Made by a program: the position numbers and the translations under genes. The notes below the pieces were generated by a model. It did no database searches. It worked only from the letters and a program-made list of their open reading frames with translations, and was not told the DNA's origin. This document shows positions 8,413 to 22,590 of a stretch of DNA of 64,000 nt, piece after piece. Position 1 is the first letter of the stretch. Each line of letters starts with the position of its first letter. The DNA comes from an uncultured Cytophagales bacterium (GTDB lineage Bacteria > Bacteroidota > Bacteroidia > Cytophagales > Bernardetiaceae): the NCBI GenBank assembly GCA_963761725.1, contig CAVXHP010000006.1, forward strand, positions 317,534 through 381,533. Direction: 5' to 3'.

Positions 8413-8532
8413 AATCAGTTACCAGTTGAATTTCTTGTATTTTTATTCTCCTCAAACTCTTCTTCCTCTGTGGTTCAAAATTGTATTTCTTGTATTCTCA
8501 TCTTCCTAATTCCCAATCCCCATTCCCTCAAA

Positions 8533-9511
8533 ATGAAATTTTTTCTCCTATTTATTACTTTTTTTCTCGTTCATTTTTCTTCATCTTACGCTTTTTCTTC
8601 TTTTATTTCTAAAAAAGATTCTATCGGATTAGAAAGAAGAGGAAATAATCTGTACATAAAACACAAAGTAACCATTGGTGAAGACATTTATAAAATTGCT
8701 AGAAAATATGGAATAAATAAAGAAACATTAATTACGCTAAACCCAGTTGCTCGTTATCCCTTAAAGGTAAATCAAATTCTGTTTATTCCTCACGCTCAAA
8801 CGAGCTATAGAATTTCTCAATTAAAAGGGTATAAAGTGCGTCCAAGCGAAACGCTTTTTTCAATTGCTTCAAAGTTTCAAACAGATGTAAAGACGCTCAA
8901 AGAACTCAATGAGCTTTATTCTACCCAAATACAAACAGGACAAGAATTACTTATTCCTTATCCAAACAATCATCAAGATTTATACACCATTCCTTCAAAT
9001 GCGTACAGTTCAGCTAAAGACCCAAATACAAAAAATCAGACTCAACACAATTACCATACTAGTAGCCAATGGAGAAACTCTATATTCAATTTCCAAAACT
9101 TATAAAGTAAGTGTAGAGCAATTAAAGAAATTAAATAATAATCCTTCTGGACAAATAAAGGTAGGACAAAAGATAATTGTAGGAGAAGGAGAAGCTACTG
9201 AAGAGGTTTTGATTGTGGCAAGTGCTTCTAGTTTGCAAACGAAAAAAGGAAAACCTCATTCAGAATCAGGTGTCTGTAATGTTACTCTGAATAGTGAACG
9301 TTTGGTAGGAATGCACCGAACTGCACCCAAAGGAACCTTAATCAAAATTCATAATGAAAGCACAGGCAGAACAGTAACCGTAAAAATAATAGGCAAAATT
9401 CAGAATATTGACCGAAATACCAATGTAGTTATTATTATTAGTCACGAAGCTGCACGAAAACTAGGAACGATGAGCAAAGAATTTCCTGTTTATTTGAATT
9501 GGGAAGAATAA
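8533..9511 (+). CDS. secreted LysM-repeat (x3) protein with C-terminal RlpA-like double-psi beta-barrel domain; frame interrupted near 9061
   Basis: Signal peptide MKFFLLFITFFLVHFSSSYA at 8533. LysM motifs: DIYKIARKYGINKETLITLNP, ETLFSIASKF and GETLYSISKTYKVSVEQLKKLN. The RlpA-like HRTAPKGTLIKIHNESTGRTVTVKI...SHEAARKLG region is in a +1 frame. Deleting the A at 9061 (actagta) restores YHTVANGETLYSIS. Confidence 0.65.
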
Positions 9512-11084: not shown

Positions 11085-11107
11085 AATTCGTAATTCGTAA
11101 TTGATCC
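11085..11107. repeat. 'aattcgtaatt' short tandem repeat unit
   Basis: aattcgtaattcgtaattgatcc. The family recurs at 13543, 17565, 17673, 18082 and 37057-37163. Confidence 0.6.
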
Positions 11108-17322: not shown

Positions 17323-17566
17323 ATGAAACTACCAGTTATAAAACAATTAGTAGAAAATTACTCATTAGAAGAACTCAAAAAAGCTGAGTCTGTCAATGGA
17401 GGAAGGCGAAACGCCAAACATTGAAGTAAAAGGCGAAGACGAAGGCGAACAATTTACACATGTTATTGCAGCCGTTTGGGTAAAGGAAAAAATGACAACG
17501 GATGGCATTGATGCTCGTGCTGCTATGCGTGAATACACGCAGAAGGTTAGAAATTCAATAAGTTAA
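17323..17566 (+). CDS. small conserved-looking ORF interrupted by a frameshift (33 aa + 56 aa)
   Basis: 17323-17424 encodes MKLPVIKQLVENYSLEELKKAESV... The -1 frame from 17396 encodes MEEGETPNIEVKGEDEGEQFTHVIAAVWVKEKMTTDGIDARAAMREYTQKVRNSIS. Neither piece is in the ORF track because both are under the length cutoff. Confidence 0.25.
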
Positions 17567-17702
17567 TTACGAATTTTCAATTACGAATTACGAATTGAAA
17601 TACAAAAATAAACCTAGTATATTTATCATATATGAAAAACAAAAGCTGATTGAGTATTCATTACTTTACTCTCGTAATTTTTAATTCGTAATTCGTAATT
17701 GA
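17565..17702. repeat. inverted 'aattacgaatt / aattcgtaatt' repeat pair enclosing ~75 bp
   Basis: aattacgaattttcaattacgaattacgaattg at 17565-17597 and ctcgtaatttttaattcgtaattcgtaatt at 17673-17702. The right arm abuts the start codon of the four-helix-bundle gene. Confidence 0.6.
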
Positions 17703-17703
17703 C

Positions 17704-18054
17704 ATGAAAGATAACATTATTCAGAAAAAGAGCTTTGATTTTGCTATCCGAATAGTGAAGGCTTATAAGTTTTTGATTTCTAAACAAGAATATGTTTTGT
17801 CAAAACAATTATTACGTAGTGGAACGTCAATAGGTGCAAATGTAGAAGAAGCTATAGGTGGATATTCTAGAACCGATTTTGGTTTTAAATTATCCATTGC
17901 ATACAAAGAAGCTAGAGAAACACTTTATTGGATTAAACTCTTAAAAGCAACTGACTATCTTTCAGAAGAAATGAGTAAAAGTCTGATTCAAGATGCAGAA
18001 GAAATCTGTAAAATAATTGGCAAAATACAAACTTCTCTAAAGAATAATAAATAA
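17704..18054 (+). CDS. four-helix-bundle protein (23S rRNA intervening-sequence protein family, TIGR02436-like)
   Basis: SFDFAIRIVKAYKFL...QLLRSGTSIGANVEEA....EARETLYWIKLL is the typical signature of this family. The gene is flanked on both sides by cgtaatt repeats. Confidence 0.75.
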   Translation: MKDNIIQKKSFDFAIRIVKAYKFLISKQEYVLSKQLLRSGTSIGANVEEAIGGYSRTDFGFKLSIAYKEARETLYWIKLLKATDYLSEEMSKSLIQDAEEICKIIGKIQTSLKNNK

Positions 18055-18081
18055 AACAACGAAGCTAGTCAAGCTATAGAA

Positions 18082-18122
18082 TTTCGTAATTAAAAATTCG
18101 TAATTGACAATTCGTAATTAAA
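18082..18122. repeat. 'aattcgtaatt' repeat cluster
   Basis: atttcgtaattaaaaattcgtaattgacaattcgtaattaa. Confidence 0.55.
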
Positions 18123-18167
18123 TTAAGTTTTTAACGGACTTTGAATCCGTTTTCAAAAAACAATACT

Positions 18168-19356
18168 ATGAATATAACTACAAAAAATCCAGAAAACCCT
18201 AATTCTAAGGGAAGAGTTTTGGTCGCCATGAGTGGTGGAATTGATAGTTCGTTAGCAGCCGTTTTGTTGCACGAACAAGGTTATGAAGTCATCGGAATGA
18301 CGATGAAAACGTGGGATTATGCTGCTTCTGGTGGCAATATGAAAAAAGAAACAGGCTGTTGTAGTTTGGATTCTATCAATGATGCACGTTCTATTTCGGT
18401 TGATTTGGGTTTCCCTCATTATATTTTGGACATTCGTTCCGAATTTGGCGATTACGTCATCGATTATTTTACAGAAGAATATATGGAAGGCAGAACGCCA
18501 AATCCGTGTGTGCTTTGCAATACGCATATCAAATGGGATGCACTTTTAAGACGTGCCGATAATTTGGGTTGTCAGTATATTGCGACAGGTCATTATGCCA
18601 ATATTAGAGAAGAAGAAGGACGTTTTGTAGTTTCGAAAGGTGTGGATACCAAAAAAGACCAATCGTATGTTTTGTGGGGCGTTTCGCAAGAAAGTTTGAG
18701 CCGAACGATGCTTCCTTTGGGCAATCTTACAAAAGACCAAATCCGTCAAATGGCTTTGGATAGAGGTTTTGATGAGCTTGTCAAAAAATCAGAATCGTAT
18801 GAAATCTGTTTTATTCCAGATAATGACTATCGTAGCTTTTTGAAAAGAAGAGTTCCTGATTTAGAGGAGAAGGTAGGAAAAGGAAATTTTGTAATGACAA
18901 CTGGAGAAGTAGTCGGAAAGCATGAAGGTTATCCATTTTATACTATCGGACAACGAAAAGGATTAGGAATTGCACTTGGACAACCTGCTTATGTAGTTGA
19001 AATTAAAAAAGATACCAATGAGGTAATTTTAGGTTACAAAGATGATTTGTTTAGAGATGGAATGATTGTCAAAAAATTAAACCTTCAAAAATATGCAAAT
19101 ATTGAAGGTGATTTATTGACTACTACAAAAGTTCGTGTCCATCATGCAGGTGCTCCAGCAACCATTACACAAAGCGAAAGACGGACAAGAACTTACTGTT
19201 CTTTTTCACGAGCCTGTAGATGCCATTGCACCAGGACAATCTGCTGTTTTTTATGATGGCGATGATGTAATTGGTGGAGGTTGGATAGTTTCTTCCTTCC
19301 AACAAATTGGAGAACGAACGAATAGAGAAAAATTTGTTTCCTACGGAGGTTTATAA
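18168..19356 (+). CDS. mnmA: tRNA 2-thiouridine(34) synthase MnmA; frame interrupted near 19160-19175
   Basis: VLVAMSGGIDSSLAAVLLHEQGYEVIGMTMKTW PP-loop and CVLCN motif. The C-terminus AKDGQELTVLFHEPVDAIAPGQSAVFYDGDDVIGGGWI is in the +1 frame (ORF 19135..19356). The ORF-track start at 18141 is a TTG; ATG at 18168 is more likely. Confidence 0.85.
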
Positions 19357-19394
19357 GCCTAAGATGGTTTAAATATATAATTCAAAATTGTCAG

Positions 19395-19429
19395 ACCACT
19401 TGATAAAAAAAATATTAAGTGGTTTTTTT
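19395..19429 (+). terminator. rho-independent terminator after mnmA (accacttgat...aagtggttttttt)
   Basis: Hairpin followed by a T7 run. Confidence 0.6.
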
Positions 19430-19507
19430 CTTGAGTATAAATTTTGTATTTTTACTCATTAATTTATCATTTGCTCAAAAAATTAGAATCAATTCTACTA
19501 TAAATCC

Positions 19508-20704
19508 ATGCTAAAAACAGAAGAAGAAAGTCTTACAAATCAAACTTATTTTACAGAACCATTGCAGACAAAAATATCTGTCTGGGATAAATCTGTCAAA
19601 GTGGAAGAAAATGGATATTATTGGAAAAAAGATCCTGTTTTTCAAAAAGGAAGTGATATTTTATCTACAAAACCTAGTGTCGTAGAGTTATTTTGTGGTT
19701 GTGGAGGAACTTCATTAGGTTTTGAAATGGCTGAATTTGAGATTGTATTGGGTTGTGATATTCATACTCCCTCTATACAAACTTTTAAAAAAAACCACCC
19801 TTCTGTTTCAACAATAACAGGAGATATAAAAAATGTTGATCCTAATGTAATTAAAGAATTATTAAATGGTAAAGAGCTTGATGTTCTGATTGGAGGTATT
19901 CCTTGTCAAGGATTTTCATTGAATAATCGTAAAAGACACGAAGATGATGACAGAAATTTTATGTACAAAGAGTTTATGAGATTTGTAGAAATTCTTCAGC
20001 CCAAAGTTGTTGTGTTAGAAAATGTTTCAGGAATGCAAAGTACAGGAAATTTTGTTCATCAGATTGAGGAAGAATTAGGAAAAGTAGCTAAAATGAATGT
20101 AAAAAGTAAACTTCTTTACGCTCCTGATTATGGAGTTCCACAAAGAAGAACTAGACTTGTATTTGTTGGAATTAAAGAACAAGAATTTGATTTTGATAGT
20201 ATTATAAAAACTCATGGAATAGATAAAGATAATCCTTATGTTACAATAAAAGAAGCTATTGGCGATTTACCTTCTCTAAAGCCTAAAGAAACAAAAGAAA
20301 ATTATAAAACAGAGCCTTTTTCTCAATACCAAAAACTAATGAGAAAAGATAAATCGGATAAACTAACTTGTCATACTGCCCCAAATCATCCTAAAAGCAC
20401 AATAGACAGAATTAAGAATACAAAACCAGGCGAACCTATGTATCCAAAATTTAAACAGAGAATTAGGCTAGACTGGGATATACTTAGTCCAACACAAGTT
20501 TCTGGAGGTATTAGACCTCAATTTCAGCTTGGACATCCAGAAGATAATAGAGGATTAACAATTAGAGAACGTTGTAGAATTCAAAGTTTTCCAGATAATT
20601 TTGTAGTAGAAGGTGGAATTGTTCAAGGAAGAGTACAAACAGGAAATGCTGTTCCTCCTTTATTAGCAAAAGCAGTAGCATTAGCAATTAAAAAATATTT
20701 ATAA
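19508..20704 (+). CDS. DNA (cytosine-5)-methyltransferase
   Basis: Motif I ELFCGCGGTSLGF, motif IV GIPCQGFS, motif VI ENV and QRRTR. Confidence 0.85.
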   Translation: MLKTEEESLTNQTYFTEPLQTKISVWDKSVKVEENGYYWKKDPVFQKGSDILSTKPSVVELFCGCGGTSLGFEMAEFEIVLGCDIHTPSIQTFKKNHPSVSTITGDIKNVDPNVIKELLNGKELDVLIGGIPCQGFSLNNRKRHEDDDRNFMYKEFMRFVEILQPKVVVLENVSGMQSTGNFVHQIEEELGKVAKMNVKSKLLYAPDYGVPQRRTRLVFVGIKEQEFDFDSIIKTHGIDKDNPYVTIKEAIGDLPSLKPKETKENYKTEPFSQYQKLMRKDKSDKLTCHTAPNHPKSTIDRIKNTKPGEPMYPKFKQRIRLDWDILSPTQVSGGIRPQFQLGHPEDNRGLTIRERCRIQSFPDNFVVEGGIVQGRVQTGNAVPPLLAKAVALAIKKYL

Positions 20705-21936
20705 TGAAATATAGAATTTGGTACAGTACAGAGAGTTTTGCAGATTTTATTATCGCTAATACAAATCTAAAGAACAAAATATATACAAAGAAAAAAATGT
20801 ATGAAAGTGATGCTAACAACTCTAAAAACTTTCATACAATGCCTGACCACATTAAGAAGATATTATACCTAGATGCACCTGATTTAATTATTGAAATAGA
20901 TCATGAGCCTATTTTTTCAGTAGAAGTATCTACTGAAGCAGGTACAGGACATAATGTTTTTCAAAGATTTGCTCGTCTTGCTGCATCAGTAGAAAATAAT
21001 GTACCTTCTTTTTATATTTACCCAGAAGCTGTCATAATAACAAGACAAAATACTCCCCCAAGATGGGATAAAATAAACCCTCTAATTTTTAAGGCTTTAG
21101 ATGACGTAATGAGTATTTACAAAATACCTTCATTATTTTATTACTTCCCAACAGATTATCAGACAAATCCTAACGCAAATAATTCTAGTAATCTATCAAA
21201 TAAAGGTGTTAAATATGACCAAAATAGAAATTATGCAGGAAGTCCATTAGCAACAGATTCAGAAATGCAACTCATGTTTTCTGCTATGAATGAAATTATT
21301 GATGTAGTAGAAAACCAAGGAGTAATTAGAGGAAGAGAAAATCTATTGAGTAAACGAATTATGATAGATAGAAGAACTTTTATGAATCAAGAATTTATAG
21401 CTAAAGGAGGCACAATGAATACTTCTCCATTATCTGCAACCTTAAAAATTTCAACTCAATATTTATTGAATTACTTGAGAAAACATGAAAATAGGCAGTA
21501 TCAAATAGGAGAATTACTTAAAAGTAGAGATGAAACAATCATCTATAAAGTAGATGCAAAGTTTAGAGGTGATCCTTATCCTGGTGCTTTGGCTGCCATC
21601 GATTATTTATTATGTCGTGAAGGTAAATCATTTGAAGAAAGAAAATACAATTTAGTTATGGTTTGGGGAAATCTTACGATTGATGATGTAAACAAAACAC
21701 TAAATATTACAAGTACAAAAAGTACAATCAATGATTTTGTAACGTCAGTTCAAGCAAGTGAAAACAAAAATATTTTATCAAAAGAATACAATCAATTATC
21801 AAATCAAGAAATTCCTAGATACTACATGCAAGTGAGATATGGTTCAACTTACTCTAAAGTAAAACATATTAGAGTATATTCTTATTTTGCTGATGCAATT
21901 TTATTTCCTGATGGTGCTCTATGGAGAGATGCGTAA
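20704..21936 (+). CDS. putative type II restriction endonuclease (partner of the m5C methyltransferase)
   Basis: Start overlaps the methyltransferase stop (ATGA). 410 aa with no known family. Has an LDAPDLIIEID...EVSTE region. The call rests mainly on context. Confidence 0.4.
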   Translation: MKYRIWYSTESFADFIIANTNLKNKIYTKKKMYESDANNSKNFHTMPDHIKKILYLDAPDLIIEIDHEPIFSVEVSTEAGTGHNVFQRFARLAASVENNVPSFYIYPEAVIITRQNTPPRWDKINPLIFKALDDVMSIYKIPSLFYYFPTDYQTNPNANNSSNLSNKGVKYDQNRNYAGSPLATDSEMQLMFSAMNEIIDVVENQGVIRGRENLLSKRIMIDRRTFMNQEFIAKGGTMNTSPLSATLKISTQYLLNYLRKHENRQYQIGELLKSRDETIIYKVDAKFRGDPYPGALAAIDYLLCREGKSFEERKYNLVMVWGNLTIDDVNKTLNITSTKSTINDFVTSVQASENKNILSKEYNQLSNQEIPRYYMQVRYGSTYSKVKHIRVYSYFADAILFPDGALWRDA

Positions 21937-22130
21937 TGAGAGAAGAACAAATAACAAAAAACATACTGGATTGGCTAGAAGAAAATGATTGGTTTATTAT
22001 CTGTTACGATTTTCCACAAAGTGGTACTGGAATTATGTTGCATCAAAATATAGCACATAGAGTTTCAAAAAATAAAGGTGGAATTATTCCAGATATAATC
22101 GCTGTAAAATCAAATAGCTTTATTTTTTGA
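21921..22130 (+). CDS. small ORF, possible nuclease remnant (GGIIPDIIAVK)
   Basis: 69 aa, overlaps the end of the putative endonuclease gene and ends near the island's right junction. The PD..K-like motif is reminiscent of Vsr/PD-(D/E)xK. Speculative. Confidence 0.2.
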   Translation: MERCVMREEQITKNILDWLEENDWFIICYDFPQSGTGIMLHQNIAHRVSKNKGGIIPDIIAVKSNSFIF

Positions 22131-22423
22131 AAATAAAGATAGATTTTATCAATTTGATTTTGACAAACTTCATAGAAATAAAAACTCAACAAAATTATTC
22201 TGAATCTCTTGCTAGTTTACTCTCAAAATAATTTACAAATTTATTATGGTATTGAATTGATAAAGCAAAAGAAATAGATAAAGCATTAAATCATTTAAAG
22301 TAATTAGGTCAAAGTCTGATTACAGACTATTGACAAAGCTCAAGTAATTTTTACATAAAAAACACATGCAACTATGGCACTAACAGAACAAGAAATTGAA
22401 AAAATAATCGTTCGTTACATAAT

Positions 22424-22502
22424 TTCCTTCCAGCAAATTGGAAACGAACGAATAGAGAAAAATTTGTTTCCTACGGAAGTTTATAAGCCTAAAGTGGTTT
22501 AA
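22424..22502. repeat. diverged direct-repeat copy of the mnmA 3' end (matches 19293-19372, ~76/81 identical)
   Basis: tttccttccagcaaattggaaacgaacgaatagagaaaaatttgtttcctacggaagtttataagcctaaagtggtttaag versus the authentic mnmA end. Confidence 0.85.
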
Positions 22503-22552
22503 GATTTTGATTACTGAATAGTTTACTTTTAGTAAACTGTTTGGTATTTTTA

Positions 22553-22590
22553 TAATAACAAAAAAAGGACAATGTGTAGATTGTCCTTTT
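22553..22590. terminator. bidirectional rho-independent terminator (aaggacaatgtgtagattgtcctttttt)
   Basis: Hairpin with an A-run upstream and a T-run downstream. Sits downstream of the minus-strand gpx gene. Confidence 0.6.

What the first reader, a model, noticed from the sequence alone, without database searches (positions are those of the whole stretch)
19293..22502. Methyltransferase/endonuclease cassette inserted at the mnmA 3' end with an ~80 bp target duplication
The last ~75 bp of mnmA plus its stop (19293-19372) recur as a diverged direct repeat at 22424-22502, ~76/81 identical with one 1-bp indel. The 3.05 kb between them holds exactly one unit: a cytosine-5 methyltransferase, a gene with an overlapping start (ATGA at 20704) that is the probable restriction endonuclease, and a 69-aa nuclease-like remnant. 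No integrase, transposase or tRNA is present. This is the signature reported for 'insertion with long target duplication' of restriction-modification units. The divergence between copies implies the insertion is not recent. The putative endonuclease (410 aa) matches no family I can name, so it may be a novel enzyme.
Basis: partly seen in the sequence, partly recalled or inferred. Interest (0 to 1): 0.75.

Follow-up and report, generated by a model that had tools for sequence, protein, structure and literature searches.

The report
Restriction-modification cassette inserted behind mnmA
A foreign three-gene restriction-modification operon (a cytosine methyltransferase plus a two-subunit, BsmI/BtsI-like nuclease) sits just after the tRNA-modification gene mnmA, flanked by two copies of the last 80 bases of mnmA; this is a clean but not unprecedented example of how such defence genes enter a chromosome.

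Summary
Bases 19293-19372 and 22424-22502 are a direct repeat (75/80 identical, one 1-bp indel; none expected by chance). It brackets 3,051 bp that hold only a C5 DNA methyltransferase, a 410-aa gene and a broken third gene.

A cassette-free relative (L018) has one copy of the repeat as the true 3' end of mnmA, followed by a terminator orthologous to the one right of the right-hand copy. The repeat is therefore target-derived.

- **The "69-aa remnant" is the decayed small subunit.** It has PD-X12-ENK and is intact (153 aa) in a near-identical contig.
- **The M-large-small trio is conserved** in about 45 metagenomic loci.
- **The insertion is old.** A sister lineage has the same left junction at about 93.5% identity, with the large subunit cut by an IS element.

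How the 80-bp duplication arose is unresolved. Among about 28 other evaluable loci, none shows a target-derived repeat. Some are bounded by attC-like hairpins instead.

Verdict: a real feature and a new member of known kinds. Moderate interest.

The parts
18141..19372 (+). mnmA (tRNA 2-thiouridylase), the target gene. In this window it is read in three frames because of +1 insertions near 19177 and 19312. The ancestral stop is TAA at 19370-19372.
   Evidence: Pfam tRNA_Me_trans HUP, M and C domains. Intact orthologues: 409 aa in L018 and 400 aa in L083-L088. Indel positions relative to L084.
19293..19372 (+). Left copy of the repeat: the last conserved codons (SFQQ), the variable C-terminal tail and the ancestral stop of mnmA. 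It has one extra base at about 19312.
   Evidence: The mnmA tail after SSFQQ varies across 80 Cytophagales loci.
19373..19421 (+). Left junction filler of foreign origin, containing a terminator-like hairpin (stem 19393-19425 plus T-run).
   Evidence: Terminator scan. Shared with the sister lineage L083-L088 (93%), but absent from L018 and from the same cassette in L082.
19422..19507 (+). Start of the cassette core: the upstream or promoter region shared with the L082 copy of the cassette.
   Evidence: blastn homology with L082 begins at window 19422.
19508..20704 (+). M: cytosine-5 DNA methyltransferase, 398 aa.
   Evidence: PF00145 E 3e-67, TIGR00675, PADLOC MTase_II E 2e-95.
20704..21936 (+). 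Large nuclease subunit (410 aa): BsmI-fold, with an N-terminal P59-D60-X13-E74-X12-Q87-R88 site followed by the remaining, central-type part (inferred to carry DNA recognition).
21936..22307 (+). Pseudogene of the small nuclease subunit (canonical PD-X12-ENK). The window copy is broken by at least 6 indels, including an 80-nt deletion.
22308..22338 (+). Imperfect-palindrome hairpin just after the small-subunit gene, probably the end of the operon.
   Evidence: DNA fold z -4.1. Shared with L134. An inverted copy lies upstream of mnmA in L083.
22339..22423 (+). Right junction filler of unknown origin, found only in the window and L081. Its end (22406-22416) is an inverted copy of 11 nt of the repeat.
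22424..22502 (+). Right copy of the repeat. It keeps the ancestral mnmA frame and stop (TAA 22500-22502).
22503..22556 (+). Native mnmA terminator, now separated from mnmA by the insertion.
   Evidence: Terminator scan 22512-22546. Aligns with the L018 post-mnmA terminator at 29/41 identity, with what look like compensatory stem changes.

Best explanation
**What it is.** A foreign restriction-modification operon of about 3 kb lies immediately after the stop codon of mnmA. It entered in the common ancestor of this organism and of the 'Flexibacter sp. CG_4_10_14_3_um_filter_32_15' lineage. The last 77 nt of mnmA plus the stop are now present on both sides of it. The right-hand copy stays attached to the native mnmA terminator. 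The left-hand copy stays attached to the gene.

**The operon.**
- A cytosine-5 methyltransferase.
- A split Type IIS-like endonuclease of the BsmI/BsrDI/BtsI kind.
- The genes are translationally coupled by TAATG overlaps.

**How it most likely works.** The 410-aa large subunit carries the non-canonical PD-X13-E-X12-QR site. By analogy with BsrDI/BtsI it would also hold the recognition domain and nick one strand. The roughly 150-aa small subunit carries a canonical PD-X12-ENK site and would cut the other strand. The methyltransferase protects host sites.

**State of the system.** In this genome the small subunit is a pseudogene. In the sister lineage the large subunit is split by an IS element. 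M is intact in both, so the restriction half is being lost independently in each lineage.

**Shown.** Repeat; foreign insert; single-copy site in a relative; fold and motifs; conserved gene trio; age.

**Inferred.** Enzymatic roles, and the way the duplication was made. The candidates are staggered breaks with fill-in at insertion, or capture of a DNA molecule carrying the mnmA tail (listed as a rival).
For: - **Repeat and its uniqueness:**
- **Single copy at the mnmA end in L018, with right-flank terminator orthology:**
- **Foreign nature of the insert.** The same core cassette (88% nt) sits behind pnp in L082. It occurs in about 45 unrelated contexts.
- **M:**
- **Large subunit:**
- **Small subunit:**
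- **Controller gene.** Many family members also carry an HTH controller upstream of M, as classical R-M systems do.
- **Age.** The left junction is identical in L083-L088 at about 93.5% identity across mnmA and the cassette.
- **Independent nuclease knock-outs:**
- **No mobility genes or tRNA:**
- **Criteria of Furuta et al. 2010** (PMC2853133).
Against: - Only one cassette-free relative (L018, about 89% nt in mnmA) is available. Its synteny to the right ends after the 48-nt terminator. No relative shows mnmA next to gpx.
- The sister lineage has no right-hand repeat. It has also lost the native terminator, so its right side is rearranged and uninformative.
- The repeat ends exactly at the stop codon. 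A random staggered cut does not predict this.
- Among about 28 other evaluable loci of this cassette, none has a target-derived long repeat. The duplication is therefore not a regular product of the cassette's own mobility.
- The window carries several frameshifts in other genes. Some indels, including the one inside the repeat and those in the third gene, could be assembly errors.
- A single C5 methyltransferase is unusual for an asymmetric-site enzyme. No activity or recognition site is known.
Confidence: 0.72

Rival explanations
1. **Homology-assisted capture.** The two repeat copies were never made by duplication at the moment of insertion. The cassette first lay directly behind mnmA without a repeat. 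A circular or linear DNA carrying 'mnmA tail + cassette' then entered a cassette-free chromosome. It did so by recombination within the 80-bp tail (Campbell-type), or by one homologous and one illegitimate join. On this reading one copy is donor-derived and the other recipient-derived, and their 6% difference reflects donor-recipient divergence rather than age.
For: - The repeat ends exactly at the stop codon, that is, at the cassette's primary insertion point or where coding homology would end.
- The insert carries baggage from an earlier context: its own terminator on the left and 85 nt of unknown origin on the right.
- The sister lineage shows the cassette behind mnmA with no second copy.
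- Other loci of the family show no target duplication.
- 80 bp should be long enough for RecA-dependent recombination (general knowledge).
Against: - The left copy is clade-native (2 substitutions plus 1 indel against L018), so no distant donor is visible.
- There is no mosaic break in mnmA identity towards the sister lineage.
- Divergence between the two copies is about the same as divergence between the lineages. That also fits a single old duplication.
- The sister lineage's right flank is clearly rearranged.
Confidence: 0.2
2. **Site-specific integration.** A recombinase acting in trans (integron-type or tyrosine integrase) integrated the cassette. The cassette would be a gene cassette or cis-mobilisable element that carries a surrogate 3' end of mnmA, and the repeats would be attL/attR.
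For: - In other loci the same cassette is bounded by imperfect palindromes that close with ...ACAAC / GTTG... and share a junction core CGTT|G.
  - L109 has three copies bracketing successive genes.
  - L089 has two R-M cassettes in tandem, each followed by the same roughly 134-nt element.
  - L124 has a filled and an empty 'CCGTTG' site on one contig.
  - These rest.
- A repeat that ends at the stop codon is what surrogate 3' ends look like.
Against: - The window repeat does not fold as an attC-like hairpin (z -0.4). No AAC...GTT hairpin closes the window cassette.
- No integrase lies in the cassette or within about 10 kb.
- No Phage_integrase appears among the most frequent families in flanks of about 40 loci (truncated list).
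- The left copy is clade-native rather than element-like.
- 80 bp far exceeds typical core sites.
Confidence: 0.06
3. **Artefact.** The repeat or the cassette junctions are products of metagenome assembly.
For: The window has several 1-nt frameshifts in conserved genes. The related contig L081 has an anomalous mnmA 5' half.
Against: - An independent assembly (L081) has the same two diverged copies and both junctions.
- Illumina contigs of the sister lineage reproduce the left junction in more than 20 contigs.
- The copies differ at 5 positions, so they are not a collapsed or expanded repeat.
Confidence: 0.02

Closest known systems
Insertion of R-M units with long target duplication (Nobusato et al. 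2000; Furuta, Abe & Kobayashi 2010, PMC2853133)
   Same: - R and M genes only.
- Insert under 20 kb.
- Flanking direct repeat over 30 bp that is single-copy in a genome lacking the insert.
- No transposase, integrase or tRNA.
- The repeat overlaps the 3' end of a gene, as in the two H. influenzae cases described there.
   Different: - The host is an uncultured member of Cytophagales (Bacteroidota). That phylum is not among the taxa named in the passages read.
- The repeat is diverged (94%) and the insertion is old and decaying.
- The repeat ends exactly at a stop codon.
- Other copies of the same cassette show no such repeats.
BsrDI / BtsI heterodimeric Type IIS restriction enzymes and their monomeric relatives BsmI, Mva1269I, BsrI (Xu et al. 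2007, PMC1950550; BsmI structures, PMC11889245)
   Same: - Two adjacent genes.
- From that literature, loss of the small subunit leaves a strand-specific nickase.
   Different: - No detectable sequence similarity to BsmI (profile search of PDB empty); about 13% identity in the structural alignment.
- Smaller large subunit (410 aa).
- Paired with one C5 methyltransferase instead of two amino-methyltransferases.
- Often has an HTH controller gene.
- Recognition site unknown.
Integron gene cassettes / clusters of attC sites
   Same: In L089, L109, L124 and L126 the cassette lies in same-orientation arrays. The arrays are separated by variable-length imperfect palindromes with AAC...GTT ends and a shared G|TT-type junction.
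   Different: - Not seen at the window locus.
- No IntI found.
- Core sequences deviate from RYYYAAC/GTTRRRY.
- This is a resemblance only. It was not tested with attC models.

Membership tests
Type II restriction-modification system | DNA methyltransferase with the catalytic motifs of its class | tested here: met
   PF00145 E 3e-67 over 58-396. Motifs FCGCGG, PCQGFS, ENV, QRRTR and GNAVPP are visible in the translation.
Type II restriction-modification system | Adjacent nuclease gene(s) that consistently co-occur with the methyltransferase | tested here: met
   The M, 410-aa and roughly 150-aa genes are in the same order in about 45 of 48 metagenomic loci.
Type II restriction-modification system | Sequence-specific cleavage blocked by the cognate methylation | not testable with these tools
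   Needs enzymology and a methylome.
BsrDI/BtsI-type heterodimeric Type IIS endonuclease | Large subunit with N-terminal P/A/F-D-X13-17-E-X12-QR catalytic site | tested here: met
   P59-D60, 13 residues, E74, 12 residues, Q87-R88. All are invariant in 30 homologues. The motif is as defined in PMC1950550.
BsrDI/BtsI-type heterodimeric Type IIS endonuclease | Separate small subunit with canonical PD-Xn-EXK | tested here: met
   P52-D53, 12 residues, E66-N67-K68, invariant in 27 homologues. The gene is intact in L081, L082 and L134. The window copy is disrupted between D and ExK.
BsrDI/BtsI-type heterodimeric Type IIS endonuclease | Fold shared with BsmI: N-terminal and central domains in the large subunit, C-terminal nuclease domain in the small subunit | tested here: met
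BsrDI/BtsI-type heterodimeric Type IIS endonuclease | Detectable sequence homology to characterised members | tested here: inconclusive
   A profile search against PDB sequences found nothing. There is a weak PADLOC hit to a 488-position 'Type II nicking endonuclease' model, E 8e-7, covering residues 40-163 only.
BsrDI/BtsI-type heterodimeric Type IIS endonuclease | Large subunit alone nicks one strand; heterodimer cuts both | not testable with these tools
   Biochemistry needed.
Insertion with long target duplication (Furuta et al. 2010 criteria) | Insert contains both R and M homologues and is shorter than 20 kb | tested here: met
   The insert is 3,051 bp and holds M plus two nuclease-subunit genes.
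Insertion with long target duplication (Furuta et al. 2010 criteria) | Flanking direct repeat longer than 30 bp | tested here: met
   80/79 nt, 93.75% identical.
Insertion with long target duplication (Furuta et al. 2010 criteria) | Both repeat copies align with a single sequence in a related genome that lacks the insert | tested here: met
   L018 has one copy at the mnmA 3' end, and no M or nuclease genes within the locus. Synteny on the right is limited to the 48-nt terminator.
Insertion with long target duplication (Furuta et al. 2010 criteria) | No other mobile-element genes; repeat is not a tRNA or a multicopy element | tested here: met
   The copy number in the whole genome could not be checked.
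Integron gene cassette | attC-type imperfect palindrome at the 3' end of the cassette, with the crossover at G|TT | tested here: not met
   At the window locus the repeat and right filler do not fold that way (z -0.4 and -1.6). attC-like elements are seen only in other loci.
Integron gene cassette | Integron integrase (IntI) at the head of the array | tested here: inconclusive
   None in the window neighbourhood. None among the most frequent Pfam families of 82 flanking ORFs. That list is truncated and the flanks are at most 7 kb.

The most novel reading that the evidence does not exclude
This uncharacterised and widespread R-M family (over 1,200 clusters at 90% identity, all labelled hypothetical) may normally travel as an attC-bounded, integron-type gene cassette in Bacteroidota. 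The mnmA locus would then record a rare escape, in which a cassette integrated by about 80 bp of homology or a long staggered break instead of site-specific recombination. After loss of the small subunit, the surviving methyltransferase and large subunit would form a natural nicking-modification pair rather than a dead system.
Probability: 0.15. Interest if true: 0.6.

Novelty: new member of a known kind. Interest (0 to 1): 0.4.

Why it matters
- **A large hypothetical family gets an assignment.** It assigns more than 1,200 'hypothetical' protein clusters, and their roughly 150-aa partners, to the BsmI/BsrDI/BtsI nuclease kind. This family is a source of commercial nicking enzymes. Here it is paired with a single C5 methyltransferase, which predicts a new specificity that could be cloned and tested.
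- **Independent loss of restriction.** The two separate knock-outs of the nuclease (small subunit here, large subunit in the sister lineage), with M retained, illustrate how orphan methyltransferases arise.

Tried and rejected
1. **Sequence-family searches.** Pfam and NCBIfam gave no hit for the 410-aa and small-subunit proteins. A PDB sequence search with single sequences and with profiles gave nothing useful.
2. **A closer empty site.** I looked up the exact gpx protein and found only the same contig. None of 80 Cytophagales mnmA loci has gpx or the cassette nearby.
3. **Long flanking repeats as a general property of the cassette.** Three other loci have repeats (L089, L109, L124). On inspection these are recurring boundary hairpins or array units, not target duplications.
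4. **A remnant of the right repeat in the sister lineage.** No significant alignment.
5. **A recombination breakpoint inside mnmA** (to support donor-derived DNA). The identity profile to the sister lineage shows no clear step.
6. **Chimerism of L081's intact small-subunit gene** with the sister lineage. Rejected, because L081 shares lineage-specific substitutions with the window.
7. **Cassette on plasmids, phages or viral contigs.** No match.
8. **Rfam and tRNA scans of the region.** Nothing relevant.
9. **The AFDB fold library** was unavailable.
10. **GC content.** The cassette (0.27-0.32) is not clearly distinct from the flanks.


Full report
**1. Observation**

The direct repeat is real. 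Bases 19293-19372 and 22424-22502 align with 75 of 80 columns identical: four substitutions and one 1-nt indel. A 35-nt core is exact in both copies. It is found nowhere else in the window, and no match is expected in shuffled sequence.

The 3,051 bp between the copies contain three same-strand ORFs and nothing else:
- 19508-20704, 398 aa;
- 20704-21936, 410 aa;
- 21921-22130, 69 aa.

Each stop overlaps the next start by one base (TAATG at 20702-20706 and 21934-21938). This suggests translational coupling.

**2. The repeat is the 3' end of mnmA, and the right copy is the better preserved one**

The nearest genome found, L018 (an uncultured Cytophagales MAG), has mnmA at about 95% amino-acid and 89% nucleotide identity.
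- Its mnmA is intact: 409 aa, ending ...SSFQQIGNERIEKNLFPTEVYKPKTV*.
- It has the repeat sequence once, as the last 26 codons plus the stop.

In the window, the RIGHT copy reads in that ancestral frame to the ancestral TAA (22500-22502). The LEFT copy has one extra base (GGAGAACG against GGAAACG). This shifts the tail and stops at 19354-19356.

The repeat therefore spans the last conserved codons (SFQQ), the tail and the stop, and it ends exactly at the stop codon. The tail is variable in length and sequence across 80 Cytophagales mnmA genes, so it is probably dispensable.

Downstream of the right copy lies a terminator (22512-22546). It aligns with the L018 post-mnmA terminator at 29/41 identical positions, with what look like compensatory stem changes. 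Downstream of the left copy the sequence is unrelated to L018.

This is the expected empty-site relationship, with one limitation. Beyond the terminator L018 has a GMC-oxidoreductase-like gene rather than gpx. No relative shows mnmA next to gpx.

**3. The insert is foreign and modular**

The same core, at 88% nucleotide identity and corresponding to window 19422 through the end of the third gene, sits directly after the terminator of pnp in contig L082. Relatives occur in about 45 further metagenomic contexts.

At the window locus the core is padded on both sides.
- **Left: 49 nt (19373-19421).** It contains its own terminator-like hairpin. It is shared only with the sister lineage.
- **Right: a 31-nt hairpin (22308-22338) followed by 85 nt of unknown origin (22339-22423)**.

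There is no tRNA and no Rfam family in the region. No integrase or transposase is in the cassette or among neighbours on either side. No homologue occurs in plasmid, phage or viral collections.

**4. What the genes are**

*M.* A cytosine-5 methyltransferase: PF00145 E 3e-67, with all the usual motifs.

*The 410-aa protein.*
- It has no Pfam or NCBIfam hit, and no PDB relative by sequence even with a profile.
- It has more than 1,200 homologues of nearly fixed length, all labelled hypothetical.
- An AlphaFold model built from 30 homologues is confident: pLDDT 86.7, pTM 0.86.
- In Foldseek only BsmI entries pass, at E 1.4e-8.

BsmI is a monomeric Type IIS enzyme. Its N-terminal domain cuts the bottom strand, and its C-terminal canonical PD-X17-EXK domain cuts the top strand (PMC11889245). 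Its relatives BsrDI and BtsI are heterodimers (PMC1950550).
- Their large subunit carries recognition and the non-canonical site P/A/F-D-X13-17-E-X12-QR. On its own it nicks one strand.
- Their small subunit carries PD-Xn-EXK and cuts the other strand.

The window protein has P59-D60, 13 residues, E74, 12 residues, Q87-R88. Every one of these residues is invariant in the family. A weak PADLOC match to a 'Type II nicking endonuclease' model covers the same region.

*The third gene.*
- It is intact (151-158 aa) in L081, L082, L134 and essentially all other loci.
- It carries an invariant P52-D53-X12-E66-N67-K68.

I conclude that the 410-aa and roughly 150-aa genes encode the large and small subunits of a BsrDI/BtsI-like split endonuclease.

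Many family members also have an HTH controller-type gene overlapping the start of M. The window lineage lacks it.

Differences from the characterised enzymes:
- a single C5 methyltransferase instead of two amino-methyltransferases;
- no detectable sequence similarity to BsmI;
- an unknown recognition site.

**5. State of the system here**

Contig L081 comes from another assembly of the same or a very close strain. It is 100% identical to the window over 19399-21998. Relative to it, the window's small-subunit gene has a 2-nt deletion, a 1-nt insertion, 4-nt, 1-nt and 4-nt deletions, and an 80-nt deletion. All of these fall within about 230 nt. The first lesion separates the PD from the ExK. 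L081's intact copy carries lineage-specific substitutions shared with the window, so it is not a chimera.

In the sister lineage, M is intact. This lineage comprises contigs L083-L088 and L134, and its proteins are named by NCBI as Flexibacter sp. CG_4_10_14_3_um_filter_32_15. There the large subunit is interrupted at codon ~362 by an IS element with 23-bp terminal inverted repeats and a ~9-bp target duplication.

The nuclease has therefore been disabled independently in the two lineages, with the methyltransferase kept.

A caution is needed. The window also shows single-base frameshifts in mnmA (two), in the DUF6952 gene and in a LysM/RlpA-like gene. Some indels may therefore be assembly errors. 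The larger deletions in the third gene are not typical of such errors, but I cannot settle this without reads.

**6. Age**

The sister lineage has the same mnmA-tail and filler junction, and the same cassette, at about 93.5% nucleotide identity. mnmA and the cassette are about equally diverged.

Upstream genes show the same ranking of relatedness: window closer to the sister lineage than to L018.

The insertion therefore predates the split of these two lineages. The 6% divergence between the two repeat copies is of the same size as the divergence between the lineages.

The sister lineage has no right-hand copy. It has also lost the native terminator and has a different right-hand neighbour, so its right side has been rearranged. 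It says nothing about the ancestral state.

**7. How the duplication arose**

The structure meets every criterion used by Furuta et al. (2010) for 'insertion with long target duplication', including overlap of the repeat with a gene's 3' end.

Two observations argue against a routine, cassette-encoded mechanism. Among about 28 other evaluable loci, none has a target-derived repeat. And the repeat ends exactly at the stop codon.

A plausible alternative is a primary insertion just after the stop, followed by capture of a 'tail + cassette' molecule through the 80-bp homology. I could find no evidence that discriminates between the two.

**8. A lead from other loci**

In L109, L126, L089 and L124 the cassette is bounded by variable-length imperfect palindromes. 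These close with ...ACAAC/GTTG... and share the junction CGTT|G.
- L109 has three about 95%-identical copies bracketing a GmrSD-like gene and the R-M unit.
- L089 has two different R-M units in tandem. Each starts with the same leader and each is followed by the same roughly 134-nt element.
- L124 has a filled and an empty CCGTTG site on one contig.

These points rest. The pattern resembles integron cassette arrays. No integrase was found, the cores are non-canonical, and the window locus lacks such an element. It remains a hypothesis.

**9. Verdict**

The nuclease is not a new fold but a new, uncharacterised branch of the BsmI/BsrDI/BtsI kind. The 'remnant' is its second subunit. The insertion type is known. 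This is a new member of known kinds, of moderate interest.

Noticed in passing
window 19170-19185 and 19308-19315: mnmA carries two +1 insertions relative to intact orthologues (GAAAGAC against GAAGAT in L084; GGAGAACG against GGAAACG). The first would remove the conserved C-terminal barrel. This is either a true pseudogene of a near-universal gene or an assembly error.
   Followed up: partly
window 17323-17566 and 8470-9511: Two more apparent frameshifts. One is in the DUF6952 gene (extra base near 17390 relative to L084). The other is in a LysM/RlpA-like gene split into overlapping ORFs 8470-9105 and 8909-9511. They suggest a raised indel rate in this assembly, or ongoing gene decay.
   Followed up: partly
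window 17559-18125 (gene 17704-18054): A 23S-rRNA-intervening-sequence-protein gene (PF05635) lies between the DUF6952 gene and mnmA. It is bracketed by inverted repeats built from TTCGTAATTCGTAATT. The segment has no counterpart in L018 or L084 (no aligning sequence or called gene between the DUF6952 gene and mnmA there). The same 16-mer recurs at 11087, 37073 and 37134, and next to the cassette's right end in L134.
   Followed up: partly
L109 34-104, 2672-2746, 6221-6281; L126 3625-3700; L089 5142-5275 and 9150-9292; L124 3700-3846: attC-like imperfect palindromes (ACAAC...GTTG ends, shared CGTT|G junction) bound the same R-M cassette and its neighbouring genes. This suggests integron-like cassette arrays in uncultured Bacteroidota.
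   Followed up: partly
L089 5260-8278: A second, unrelated R-M unit (HTH, a 350-aa C5 methyltransferase and a 482-aa protein) follows the first in tandem. It starts with a copy of the same roughly 180-nt leader sequence.
   Followed up: no
L084 5346-5481 and L134 1-122: An IS element interrupts the large nuclease subunit at codon ~362 in the sister lineage. Its terminal inverted repeat is GGTTATCTGACAATTTTTGTGGA and its target duplication is about 9 bp (AGAATATAG). More than 20 short-read contigs end at this point.
   Followed up: yes
window 22375-22502 and 22406-22453: A 42-aa ORF (MALTEQEIEKIIVRYIISFQQIGNERIEKNLFPTEVYKPKVV) starts in the right filler and runs through the right repeat in the old mnmA frame. 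It was called as a gene in L081. The filler's last bases (AATCGTTCGTT) are an inverted copy of AACGAACGAAT inside the repeat, giving a 9-bp stem.
   Followed up: no
L081 about 1600-2400 (equivalent to window 18199-18998): In the otherwise near-identical contig L081, the 5' two-thirds of mnmA is 25-45% divergent from the window. It has many indels and was called as three fragments. This is unexplained: assembly noise, a decayed allele or a recombinant.
   Followed up: no
window 22308-22338; L083 1976-2006: The hairpin that ends the cassette also occurs, inverted, upstream of mnmA in one sister-lineage contig (L083). That contig has a different left neighbour from L084 and L085. The hairpin may be a lineage-specific repeated terminator or a rearrangement point.
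   Followed up: no
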